Shown here: positions 1,846 through 2,558 of the stretch, one piece after another | Layout of the letters: each line of letters starts with the position of its first letter | Numbering within the stretch: the stretch's first letter is position 1 | DNA from: Escherichia coli | GTDB taxonomy: Bacteria; Pseudomonadota; Gammaproteobacteria; Enterobacterales; Enterobacteriaceae | Reading direction: 5' to 3' (one strand) | Assembly: GCF_003334385.1 (NCBI RefSeq) | Contig: NZ_QOWN01000078.1 | DNA: 6,064 bases | Position numbers and translations under genes: made by a program | The notes under the pieces: generated by a model | Databases searched by the model: none | Seen by the model: the letters and a program-made list of their open reading frames with translations, nothing else | Told to the model about the DNA's origin: nothing

Positions 1846-1859
1846 TAAAGAAATGTAAT
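1831..1859 (+). promoter_or_regulatory. Candidate PRM-like promoter for cI: -35 TTGCTT (1831-1836), 17-bp spacer, -10 TGTAAT (1854-1859)
   Basis: Hexamers with 17-bp spacing. Predicted transcription start about 7 nt downstream of the -10 falls at or next to the cI ATG (1866). No Shine-Dalgarno precedes the cI ATG, consistent with a leaderless transcript as in lambda PRM. Confidence 0.35.
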
Positions 1860-1865
1860 AAACGC

Positions 1866-2558
1866 ATGAACATAGGAAACCGAGTCAGACAACTTCGCCA
1901 GGCGAAGAACATGAAAATCGCCGATCTCGCTGAAGCAATAGGAGTGGATGCGGCGAATATCTCACGCCTGGAAACAGGTAAGCAGAAACAATTCACTGAA
2001 CAAGCCCTGAGTAATATTGCCAGGAGCTTAGGTGTTGATATTGCTGATCTCTTTACCTCAGACGTCAAAAGTAATACTGTATGTAAAAACAGTATTAGTG
2101 AGGATGTTGCGCAGGTGAAGGATGTATTCCGTATTGAAATGCTGGATGTCAGTGCCAGTGCGGGAAATGGCCTTATCCAGGGCGGTGATGTCATTGATGT
2201 GATTCATGCCATTGAATACAGAACTGATAATGCTGTATCGATGTTTGGCGGACGGCCAGCCAATCACATTAAAGTTATCAACGTTCGTGGGGACAGTATG
2301 TGTCCAACCATTGAGCCAGGAGATCTCATCTTCGTTGATATCAGTATCAATCAGTTTGATGGGGATGGTATATATGTATTTGGTTTTGATGATAAAATTT
2401 ACGTCAAACGACTGCAAATGATACCTGATAAACTGCTGGTAATTTCTGATAATCAGATTTACCGCGAATGGGGAATTACCAGCGAAAACGAACATCGGTT
2501 TATGGTCTTTGGAAAGGTCTTAATCAGTCAGTCACAAACCCTTAAGCGACACAATTAA
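1866..2558 (+). CDS. cI-like prophage repressor: N-terminal HTH (XRE) plus C-terminal S24 LexA-type autopeptidase, 230 aa
   Basis: HTH segment QAKNMKIADLAEAIGVDAANISRLETGKQ. Candidate Ala99-Gly100 cleavage site (codons 2160-2165). Catalytic Ser144 in GDSMCPTIEPGDLIFVD (codon 2295-2297) and Lys181 in YVKRL; the Ser-Lys spacing of 37 residues equals that of LexA. Divergent from cro. Confidence 0.9.
   Translation: MNIGNRVRQLRQAKNMKIADLAEAIGVDAANISRLETGKQKQFTEQALSNIARSLGVDIADLFTSDVKSNTVCKNSISEDVAQVKDVFRIEMLDVSASAGNGLIQGGDVIDVIHAIEYRTDNAVSMFGGRPANHIKVINVRGDSMCPTIEPGDLIFVDISINQFDGDGIYVFGFDDKIYVKRLQMIPDKLLVISDNQIYREWGITSENEHRFMVFGKVLISQSQTLKRHN

What the first reader, a model, noticed from the sequence alone, without database searches (positions are those of the whole stretch)
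1850..1870. cI-like repressor gene appears to be translated from a leaderless or SD-less mRNA
No purine-rich Shine-Dalgarno lies within 15 nt upstream of the cI ATG (1866). The best -10 candidate (TGTAAT, 1854-1859) places the transcription start at or within about 1 nt of the ATG. This matches the leaderless cI mRNA made from lambda PRM, so the maintenance transcript here is probably leaderless too.
Basis: inference. Interest (0 to 1): 0.4.

Follow-up and report, generated by a model that had tools for sequence, protein, structure and literature searches.

The report
Leaderless mRNA for a prophage repressor
The repressor gene of this E. coli prophage almost certainly makes a messenger RNA that begins at its own start codon, with no ribosome-binding leader, as phage lambda's cI does; this is correct but an ordinary, already documented design.

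Summary
ATG 1866 is the true start of a 230-aa repressor with an HTH domain and an S24 peptidase domain. No Shine-Dalgarno sequence precedes it: anti-SD duplex energy is -0.9 kcal/mol, against -6 to -11.6 for most other genes in the window. TGTAAT (1854-1859) lies exactly 6 nt before the ATG. Lambda PRM (TAGATT-6 nt-ATG) and e14 ymfK (TTTAAT-6 nt-ATG) have the same geometry.

- **Conservation.** In 17 of 19 orthologous loci found in the species-representative scan (about 10 genera, 40-93% protein identity), plus ST64B and SfII, a T[G/T][T/A]AA[T/C] hexamer sits 6 nt (once 7) before an invariant ATG. The linker between them varies, and none has an SD.
- **Mapped 5' ends.** In Salmonella prophage ST64B (84% identical repressor, identical -10), published dRNA-seq places a start site on the A of the ATG (5' UTR = 0). 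It also places PR 76 bp away and a weak second start 292 nt upstream.

Caveats: there is no RNA data for this exact element, and the -10 has G at the critical -11 position.

Leaderless prophage repressor mRNAs are well documented (lambda cI, RacR, YmfK, PaaR2). This is a new member of a known kind, and interest is low.

The parts
1866..2558 (+). cI-like repressor CDS (230 aa; HTH_XRE domain plus S24 peptidase domain). Its first base, A1866, is the predicted transcription start of the maintenance mRNA.
   Evidence: ORF list. Pfam HTH_3 covers residues 7-62 with the full model, and Peptidase_S24 covers 104-218. PHROG 'transcriptional repressor / CI-like repressor'. RefSeq annotates the same 693-nt CDS. 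The N-terminus MNIGNR.R.LR is conserved in 13 homologs and M16 is not.
1854..1859 (+). -10-like hexamer TGTAAT of the maintenance promoter (PRM-like), at -12..-7 relative to A1866. G at -11 is non-canonical.
   Evidence: Sequence. Conserved as T[G/T][T/A]AA[T/C] at the same distance in 17 of 19 orthologous loci plus ST64B and SfII. Identical hexamer upstream of the mapped start site in ST64B.
1860..1865 (+). 6-nt linker (discriminator) AAACGC between the -10 and the start codon. It is variable in orthologs apart from C at -3, and it holds no SD.
   Evidence: Per-column counts. Anti-SD duplex energies from +0.9 to -2.9 kcal/mol in all orthologs.
1831..1836 (+). -35-like hexamer TTGCTT, 17 bp upstream of TGTAAT. 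It forms the left half-site of the operator at 1831-1845.
   Evidence: Sequence. TTTGC at -36..-32 is conserved across orthologs.
1831..1845 (.). Operator TTGCTTAACGCGCAA (TTGC-N7-GCAA) overlapping the PRM-like -35 and spacer. A likely site of negative autoregulation, in the role of lambda OR3.
   Evidence: Repeat family D1, shared with the two sites downstream of cI. Exact pattern matches. Half-sites conserved in orthologs. The function is inferred.
1817..1824 (.). Highly conserved palindrome TTGCGCAA. On the minus strand it supplies the PR -35 (TTGCGC). It is probably also an operator half-site.
   Evidence: Information of 1.4-1.7 bits per position across orthologs. It sits in the -35 position of the mapped ST64B PR promoter sequence.
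1783..1797 (.). Operator-like site TTGCGTGATGAGCAT over the PR start region, in the role of lambda OR1.
   Evidence: One-mismatch match to TTGC-N7-GCAA. It is the mirror partner of 1831-1845 in the 32-nt inverted repeat I1.
1790..1801 (-). PR-like promoter core for cro: -10 TAATAT (plus-strand 1796-1801) and predicted start at about 1790, 76 bp from the cI start.
   Evidence: The ST64B dRNA-seq start site for SL1344_1966 at 2072168(-) maps 76 bp from the cI start site. Its equivalent is window position 1790.
1508..1768 (-). Divergent cro-like gene (86 aa, HTH) with a strong SD (GGAGG). It serves as an internal control showing that the neighbouring gene uses canonical initiation.
   Evidence: SD duplex -10.0 kcal/mol.
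1538..1574 (+). Candidate establishment (PRE-like) promoter TTTAAA-17-TAGATT with a start at about 1573/1574, antisense to cro. It would give a roughly 292-nt leadered cI transcript that still lacks an SD.
   Evidence: A weak dRNA-seq start site lies 292 nt upstream of the ST64B cI ATG (8 and 4 reads). It was mapped to the window through alignment A4. The hexamers were read from the sequence, and the assignment is tentative.
2579..2596 (+). Intrinsic terminator hairpin ending the cI transcript.
   Evidence: Terminator scan. Annotated as a putative rho-independent terminator in SfII.

Best explanation
This is the immunity switch of a lambdoid, SfV/ST64B-like E. coli prophage.

In a lysogen, sigma-70 RNA polymerase uses a weak maintenance promoter: -35-like TTGCTT at 1831-1836, a 17-bp spacer and -10-like TGTAAT at 1854-1859. 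It starts transcription on A1866, the first base of the repressor's AUG. The resulting mRNA has no 5' untranslated region and no Shine-Dalgarno sequence. Ribosomes must therefore recognise the 5'-terminal AUG directly, by the leaderless pathway established for lambda cI. That pathway gives modest repressor synthesis.

The promoter is embedded in TTGC-N7-GCAA operators that it shares with the divergent PR/cro promoter 76 bp away. The repressor therefore controls its own synthesis and shuts off cro.

- **Shown here:** the start codon assignment, the absence of an SD, and the conserved -10/ATG geometry.
- **Shown in an ortholog by published dRNA-seq:** the start site on the A of the ATG.
- **Inferred:** the same start site in this element, the mode of ribosome recruitment, and the autoregulation.
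For: 1. **The start codon is ATG 1866.**
   - It is the first start after an in-frame stop.
   - The first 15 residues are conserved across 13 homologs of 68-84% identity, with synonymous nucleotide changes. Met16 is replaced by Ile or Leu in homologs.
   - Pfam HTH models begin at residues 3-7.
   - RefSeq uses this start.
2. **There is no SD.** Duplex energy is -0.9 kcal/mol here, against -10.0 for cro and -11.6 for cII. It ranges from +0.9 to -2.9 in every ortholog.
3. **The geometry matches proven leaderless repressor genes.** Lambda has TAGATT-6 nt-ATG and e14 ymfK has TTTAAT-6 nt-ATG. The ymfK start site is at leader length 0 by dRNA-seq and RLM-RT-PCR (PMC4681348 Table S3).
4. **The arrangement is conserved.** In 17 of 19 orthologous loci (Citrobacter, Kluyvera, Klebsiella, Trabulsiella, Pantoea, Mixta, Cedecea, Providencia, Serratia and Phaseolibacter), plus ST64B and SfII, the hexamer sits 6 nt (once 7) before an invariant ATG. 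The linker varies.
5. **The ortholog has a mapped start site.** For ST64B SL1344_1967 the start site equals the CDS start (5' UTR 0), with 59 and 218 reads. PR lies 76 bp away (PMC3293720 Table S1). The published sequences map exactly onto ST64B, and the window is 43/51 identical over -50..+1 with the same -10.
6. **The ST64B repressor gene is well expressed in lysogens,** at TPM 165-520 (PMC7067206 supplement).
7. **The first ~25 nt or so of the predicted mRNA are largely unstructured** in most orthologs.
Against: - There is no 5'-end data for this exact E. coli element. The inference rests on an ortholog with 8 differences in the 51-nt promoter window, two of them in the -35 hexamer and one in the linker.
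- The -10 has G at -11, which is normally very damaging. The consensus promoter scan did not call it and instead flagged TCCACA-16-TATTAT at 1775-1802. The Salmonella authors assigned no sigma motif to this start site.
- The Salmonella evidence is a single dRNA-seq study with modest read counts, and the site is labelled 'secondary'.
- A second, leadered start site exists 292 nt upstream in ST64B, so not all cI mRNA is leaderless.
- Translation of the leaderless RNA has not been shown for this family.
Confidence: 0.85

Rival explanations
1. The repressor is made mainly from leadered transcripts that start upstream. Candidates are the PRE-like site near 1574 and the TCCACA-16-TATTAT site at 1775-1802. 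The internal AUG would then be used without an SD, helped by the A/U-rich unstructured upstream sequence (S1-dependent, SD-independent initiation).
For: - A dRNA-seq start site exists 292 nt upstream of the ST64B cI ATG, and the authors labelled it 'primary'.
- The only consensus-quality plus-strand promoter match in the intergenic region is at 1775-1802.
- The 25 nt before the ATG are about 80% A/T.
Against: - The upstream ST64B start site has 8 and 4 reads, against 59 and 218 for the start site on the ATG.
- TATTAT at 1797-1802 is the complement of the PR -10, and its plus-strand reading is not conserved: it is TGTTAT in SfII and ST64B.
- This model does not explain why the hexamer-6 nt-ATG spacing and the ATG itself are conserved across genera.
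- It is probably true as a minor or establishment-phase route, but not as the main one in lysogens.
Confidence: 0.08
2. The real start codon is the second ATG at 1911 (Met16), as annotated in the GenBank records of mEp460 and Stx2a_1447 (215 aa). The mRNA starting near 1866 would then carry a 45-nt leader.
For: - Two phage records and several metagenomic gene calls use the 215-aa form.
- The sequence GGCGAAG upstream of 1911 gives a weak anti-SD duplex of -2.9 kcal/mol.
Against: - Met16 is Ile or Leu in many homologs, whereas residues 1-15 are strongly conserved with synonymous third-position changes.
- Pfam HTH_3 needs residues 7-62, so a Met16 start would delete helix 1.
- The GGCGAAG sequence lies in a predicted hairpin.
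- RefSeq, SfII and ST64B use the first ATG.
Confidence: 0.03
3. The hexamer is a coincidence or serves another purpose, such as a protein-binding site. The missing SD would then simply reflect a poorly translated or decaying gene.
For: TGTAAT lacks the -11 A, and the chance of a 5/6 match at one position is not negligible at about 1.6%.
Against: - The gene is intact and under purifying selection in 1041 of 5426 complete E. coli genomes and in many other genera.
- The ortholog is expressed in lysogens.
- A primary 5' end maps exactly 7 nt downstream of the hexamer.
Confidence: 0.02

Closest known systems
Phage lambda cI mRNA from PRM (the classic leaderless mRNA)
   Same: - Divergent cI/cro genes with back-to-back promoters buried in repeated operators.
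- A -10 hexamer exactly 6 nt before the ATG: TAGATT-TAACGT-ATG in lambda and TGTAAT-AAACGC-ATG here.
- No SD.
- A repressor with an N-terminal HTH and a C-terminal self-cleavage (S24-type) domain.
- A second operator pair beyond the cI terminator, in front of the leftward early operon.
   Different: - The proteins are only distant relatives, and the operators differ (TTGC-N7-GCAA, 15 bp).
- The operator overlapping the promoter is centred near -28 rather than about -19, going by the operator coordinates in the lambda record.
- The -10 has G rather than A at -11.
- The start-site separation is 76 bp here. In lambda it is about 83 bp (from memory).
- The cII-like gene is of the YmfL type, not lambda CII.
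- Activation by repressor bound at a middle operator has not been shown here.
ST64B prophage repressor Sb38 / SL1344_1967 of Salmonella Typhimurium
   Same: - True ortholog: 84% identical protein, the same recognition helix, and a collinear 97-bp intergenic region.
- Identical TGTAAT hexamer.
- dRNA-seq start site on the A of the ATG.
   Different: - Eight substitutions in the -50..+1 window, including TTGCAC instead of TTGCTT at -35.
- A different host genus.
- The leaderless status appears only as a row in a supplementary table and was not discussed as a property of a prophage repressor.
Leaderless repressor mRNAs of E. coli cryptic prophages: YmfK (e14), RacR (Rac), DicA (Qin, 3-nt leader) and PaaR2 (CP-933P)
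   Same: - Repressor genes divergent from a cro-like gene, with start sites at or within 3 nt of the AUG.
- The start sites were mapped by dRNA-seq or RLM-RT-PCR (PMC4681348), by primer extension (PMC9638921), or by 5' RACE with N-terminal sequencing (PMC8630535).
- e14 has TTTAAT-6 nt-ATG, also without A at -11.
- The PaaR2 locus also has a 97-bp intergenic region.
   Different: - These are unrelated or very distantly related proteins. YmfK aligns with this repressor only in the S24 domain (38% identity over 39 residues).
- The operators differ.

Membership tests
Leaderless mRNA (lambda cI / PRM type) | The primary 5' end of the transcript is at the A of the start codon, or no more than a few nt upstream. 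| not testable with these tools
   No RNA data exist for this element. It is predicted from TGTAAT ending 7 nt before A1866.
Leaderless mRNA (lambda cI / PRM type) | An orthologous promoter has an experimentally mapped start site on the A of the ATG. | tested here: met
   For ST64B SL1344_1967 the start site is 2072244, equal to the CDS start, with 5' UTR 0 (PMC3293720 Table S1). The published -50..+1 sequence maps exactly to ST64B and is 43/51 identical to the window, with an identical -10.
Leaderless mRNA (lambda cI / PRM type) | An AUG start codon. Leaderless initiation in E. coli depends strongly on a 5'-terminal AUG (established knowledge; O'Donnell and Janssen 2001, cited in PMC3293720). 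| tested here: met
   The start is ATG at 1866. ATG is invariant in all 18 distinct promoter-to-ATG sequences compared, which include the window. The only lineage with an inserted leader (Rosenbergiella) has GTG instead.
Leaderless mRNA (lambda cI / PRM type) | No Shine-Dalgarno complementarity upstream of the start codon. | tested here: met
   -0.9 kcal/mol here, against -6 to -11.6 for most other genes in the window. The range is +0.9 to -2.9 in the orthologs.
Leaderless mRNA (lambda cI / PRM type) | A -10 promoter element positioned about 6-7 nt upstream of the start codon. | tested here: met
   TGTAAT lies at -12..-7 and is conserved in position across genera. The geometry is the same as in lambda and e14. 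Caveat: G at -11, and the site was not called by the consensus scan.
Leaderless mRNA (lambda cI / PRM type) | The leaderless transcript is actually translated from its 5'-terminal AUG. | not testable with these tools
   This is only indirect. The N-terminal 15 codons are under protein-level constraint and the HTH domain needs them. No N-terminal proteomic record for SL1344_1967 was found in the supplementary files held for PMC11005335.
Lambda-type CI repressor / lysis-lysogeny switch | An N-terminal Cro/C1-type HTH domain plus a C-terminal S24 (LexA-like) self-cleaving domain with a Ser/Lys dyad. | tested here: met
   Pfam HTH_3 at residues 7-62 and Peptidase_S24 at 104-218. Ser144 (GDSM), Lys181 and the A99-G100 site are invariant in homologs. 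Cleavage itself was not tested.
Lambda-type CI repressor / lysis-lysogeny switch | A divergent cro-like gene, with repeated operators in the intergenic region and at a second site in front of the other early operon. | tested here: met
   The cro-like HTH gene is at 1508-1768(-). TTGC-N7-GCAA sites are at 1783, 1831, 2614 and 2638. Counted over the whole window with one mismatch allowed, the motif is not enriched (5 matches against 4.9 expected). The case rests on the three exact copies falling in the two regulatory regions and on their conservation. Binding was not tested.
Lambda-type CI repressor / lysis-lysogeny switch | Positive autoregulation of PRM by repressor bound next to the -35. | not testable with these tools
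   This is only a geometric hint. The site at 1817-1831 would be centred at -42 relative to 1866, but its right half is a poor match.

The most novel reading that the evidence does not exclude
Leaderlessness itself may be under selection in this repressor family. A non-canonical -10 (TGTAAT, G at -11) is locked 6 nt before an invariant AUG in about 10 genera of Enterobacterales. The one lineage that acquired a leader of about 50 nt (Rosenbergiella) also switched to GTG. If so, the 5'-terminal AUG would be a functional requirement rather than a historical accident. It might set a low, stress-proof rate of repressor synthesis by direct 70S initiation, or couple promoter strength to translation. 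The weak -10 would make the promoter strictly dependent on activation by bound repressor.
Probability: 0.3. Interest if true: 0.4.

Novelty: new member of a known kind. Interest (0 to 1): 0.2.

Why it matters
Its importance is mostly practical.

- **Start-codon annotation.** It fixes the start codon of a very common prophage repressor, present in 1041 of 5426 complete E. coli genomes. This includes Stx2-converting phages, where some GenBank records start 15 codons too late.
- **Gene finders.** It explains why gene finders that expect an SD stumble here.
- **The broader pattern.** It adds a well-conserved, cross-genus example to the pattern that repressors of lambdoid prophages are made from leaderless mRNAs.
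- **An experimental system.** The family offers natural variants for asking why that design is kept: different linkers, TTAAAT or TTTAAC hexamers, and a leadered GTG variant.

It does not change what is known about leaderless translation.

Tried and rejected
- **Consensus promoter scan.** Its only plus-strand hit in the intergenic region (1775-1802) is the reverse reading of the PR -10 and is not conserved, so I rejected it as the main cI promoter.
- **Other -10 readings.** An extended -10 reading (TG-n-AATAAA) or TAATAA would put the start at or beyond the ATG, or need a 3-4 nt linker, and their last positions are not conserved. I rejected both by reasoning.
- **Viral-contig scan with the family alignment.** It returned only near-identical E. 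coli copies, which were useless for a conservation test. The species-representative genome scan supplied the diversity.
- **Other Salmonella start-site tables.** Kroger et al. 2012 and 2013 are not held. Hammarlof 2018 has no supplements held. Canals 2019 supplements have expression data but no start-site table. Ramachandran 2014 has no mention of it in the main text.
- **Evidence for the protein N-terminus.** I searched the supplementary files held for the Salmonella riboproteogenomics paper for SL1344_1967 and found nothing.
- **Literature on mEp460 and Stx phages.** I found no study of this particular switch.
- **e14 YmfK as a possible ortholog.** It aligns only in the S24 domain. It is an analogue, not an ortholog.

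Full report
**What the window is.** The 6,064-base window is the immunity region and early-left region of a lambdoid, SfV/ST64B-like prophage of E. coli. Over 900-2700 it is 99% identical to phage mEp460, about 96.5% identical to several Stx2-converting phages, 90.5% to Shigella phage SfII and about 74% to Salmonella phage ST64B. Positions 1500-2700 match at 90% identity or more in 1041 of 5426 complete E. coli genomes, and one strain is 100% identical over that stretch.

The gene order is as follows:
- a Rha-type regulator, running off the window to 967 on the minus strand;
- a CII/YmfL-like gene at 964-1515 (-);
- a cro-like gene at 1508-1768 (-);
- a 97-bp intergenic region;
- the cI-like repressor at 1866-2558 (+);
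- a terminator hairpin at 2579-2596;
- two further operators at 2614-2628 and 2638-2652;
- the early-left genes yfdP, yfdQ, yfdR and so on.

**Checking the observation.** The coordinates are exact. TGTAAT lies at 1854-1859, AAACGC at 1860-1865 and the ATG at 1866-1868. An in-frame TAA at 1836-1838 leaves no alternative start codon upstream.

The best pairing between the 20 nt upstream and the 3' end of 16S rRNA is -0.9 kcal/mol. The values are -10.0 for cro, -11.6 for cII and -6.1 to -8.6 for most other genes in the window. The only other SD-less gene, at 5547, overlaps the preceding stop codon and is presumably translationally coupled. The gene is therefore SD-less.

TGTAAT matches TATAAT at 5 of 6 positions. 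The mismatch is G at -11, normally the most important base of a -10 element. For that reason the consensus scan did not report this site.

**Is ATG 1866 the real start?** Some GenBank records (mEp460, Stx2a_1447) begin the gene at the second ATG, position 1911, giving 215 aa. SfII, ST64B and RefSeq use the first ATG. The first ATG is correct, for four reasons:
- Residues 1-15 (MNIGNRVRQLRxAKN) are among the best-conserved parts of the protein in 13 homologs of 68-84% identity.
- Met16 is Ile or Leu in several of those homologs.
- Nucleotide differences in the first 15 codons between the window and ST64B are mostly synonymous.
- The Pfam HTH_3 model matches in full at residues 7-62, so a Met16 start would remove the first helix.

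**Comparative test of the promoter reading.** A scan of one genome per species returned 19 orthologous loci with 32-93% protein identity. In 17 of them (Citrobacter, Kluyvera, Klebsiella, Trabulsiella, Pantoea, Mixta, Cedecea, Providencia, Serratia and Phaseolibacter), and also in ST64B and SfII, the same architecture recurs with almost no length variation:

TTGCGCAAG - about 6 nt - TTTGC-N7-GCAA - A-rich stretch - T[G/T][T/A]AA[T/C] - 6 nt - ATG

The hexamer is mostly TGTAAT. It is TTAAAT in Mixta and some Pantoea, and TTTAAC in Phaseolibacter. The linker is 7 nt in one locus.

Information content averages 1.56 bits per position at -12..-7, 0.86 bits in the six linker positions and about 0.8 bits in the A-rich stretch. 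No ortholog has an SD (energies +0.9 to -2.9 kcal/mol), and the start codon is ATG in every one.

A conserved hexamer at a fixed distance from a conserved AUG, across a variable linker, is what a -10 element that places +1 on the A of the AUG should look like.

The two Rosenbergiella loci are instructive exceptions. They keep the operator/TTTTAAT module but have about 50 nt inserted before the ORF, and the only available in-frame start is GTG.

**Comparison with proven cases.** Read from the actual sequences:
- Lambda has TAGATT-TAACGT-ATG.
- e14 ymfK has TTTAAT-TTCGTT-ATG.
- ST64B has TGTAAT-GAACGC-ATG.
- The window has TGTAAT-AAACGC-ATG.

Lambda cI from PRM is the textbook leaderless mRNA. 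For ymfK, dRNA-seq and RLM-RT-PCR in E. coli K-12 gave a leader length of 0. The same study gave 0 for racR and 3 for dicA (PMC4681348, Table S3 and Fig. S1). The e14 case shows that a TnTAAT hexamer lacking A at -11 can direct initiation on the A of the ATG in vivo.

RacR (primer extension; PMC9638921) and PaaR2 of CP-933P (5' RACE plus N-terminal sequencing; PMC8630535) are further leaderless prophage repressors.

**Direct evidence in an ortholog.** ST64B is resident in S. Typhimurium SL1344. Table S1 of Ramachandran et al. 2012 (PMC3293720) lists three relevant start sites.
- **On the cI ATG.** For SL1344_1967 (CDS 2072244-2072939) there is a start site at 2072244 with 5' UTR = 0. It has 59 reads in wild type and 218 reads in the ppGpp0 strain. 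Its -50..+1 sequence is CTTGCGCAAGTTGATTTGCACAATGCGCAAAAAATTAATGTAATGAACGCA, and no sigma motif was assigned.
- **PR.** A minus-strand start site at 2072168 serves the cro-side gene, with promoter ...TTGCGC...TAACAT....
- **Upstream.** A weak plus-strand start site at 2071952 lies 292 nt upstream of cI, with 8 and 4 reads.

All three published sequences map exactly onto the ST64B reference. The first ends on the A of the ATG, and PR lies 76 bp away. Over -50..+1 the window is 43/51 identical to ST64B, with the same -10 and one change in the linker. The ST64B repressor gene is expressed at TPM 165-520 in lysogens across conditions (PMC7067206 supplement).

**How it most likely works.** In the lysogen, RNA polymerase initiates at A1866 from the weak promoter TTGCTT-17-TGTAAT. 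The transcript runs to the terminator at 2579-2596. Ribosomes bind the 5'-terminal AUG directly, without an SD interaction, as established for lambda cI.

The promoter's -35 is itself the left half of an operator (1831-1845), so high repressor levels should shut it off. A mirror-image operator (1783-1797) covers the PR start. The two halves of the region form a 32-nt imperfect inverted repeat.

A PRE-like start near 1574 (TTTAAA-17-TAGATT) may supply leadered, still SD-less, transcripts during establishment.

The start codon, the missing SD and the conserved geometry are shown here. The start site is shown only in the ortholog. Ribosome recruitment and autoregulation are inferred.

**Rivals.**
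- **Mainly leadered transcripts.** This is contradicted by the read counts in ST64B and does not explain the conserved spacing.
- **A Met16 start.** This is contradicted by protein conservation and the domain boundaries.
- **Coincidence.** This is contradicted by conservation and the mapped 5' end.

**Novelty and verdict.** The phenomenon is well known for lambda and for several E. coli cryptic prophages, and the orthologous Salmonella start site already sits in a published supplementary table.

What is mildly new is the cross-genus conservation of the leaderless layout with a non-canonical -10. The conservation also allows the mis-called starts in some phage records to be corrected. I rate it a new member of a known kind, with low interest (0.2).

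Noticed in passing
window 419-620, minus strand: Rfam finds a C4 antisense RNA (RF01695, 419-506, 81 bits) and an isrK RNA (RF01394, 531-607, 62 bits), plus a weak c4 target match. All lie inside the ORF annotated as a Rha-family regulator or antirepressor. The position corresponds to STMMW_ncRNA_137 of ST64B, which is expressed at mostly about 4,000-17,000 TPM in lysogens. This suggests a P1 immI-like second immunity layer, and possibly an over-extended ORF annotation.
   Followed up: partly
window 1538-1574, plus strand: Candidate establishment (PRE-like) promoter TTTAAA-17-TAGATT, antisense to the 3' end of cro and next to the cII start. ST64B has a weak dRNA-seq start site at the aligned position, 292 nt upstream of cI.
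   Followed up: partly
window 2579-2670: A lambda-like OL/PL arrangement after cI. It comprises a terminator hairpin (2579-2596), two operators 24 bp apart (TTGCATATCTCGCAA at 2614 and TTGCATAATGCGCAA at 2638), and a PL-like promoter TTGCAT-17-TATCTT read from the sequence. About 600 bp follow with no RefSeq gene before yfdP.
   Followed up: partly
window 1893-1907 (+28..+42 of the cI mRNA): Predicted hairpin CUUCGC-CAG-GCGAAG just before the second ATG. Over 19 orthologs 80% of cells pair, against 72% in shuffles, and 4 of 6 pairs show changes on both sides. The codons for L-R-x-A-K are naturally complementary, so this may be a by-product of coding.
   Followed up: partly
L001 (mEp460) 4012-4659; L005 (Stx2a_1447) 2512-3159: These GenBank records start the repressor at the second ATG (215 aa), 15 codons too late. 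The start was probably pushed downstream because no SD precedes the true start.
   Followed up: yes
L096 and L098 (Rosenbergiella), about 570-700: These orthologs keep the operator/TTTTAAT module but have about 50 nt inserted before the ORF. Their only in-frame start is GTG. They are a natural leadered variant of an otherwise leaderless family.
   Followed up: partly
window 1781-1847: The whole operator region is a 32-nt imperfect inverted repeat (72% complementary) centred on 1814, so the PR and PRM sides are near mirror images. The palindrome TTGCGCAA (1817-1824) is almost invariant even in orthologs with 40% protein identity.
   Followed up: partly
window 5547: The second SD-less gene in the window (-1.0 kcal/mol). 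Its ATG overlaps the stop codon of the preceding ORF (ATGA), so translational coupling is the likely explanation.
   Followed up: no
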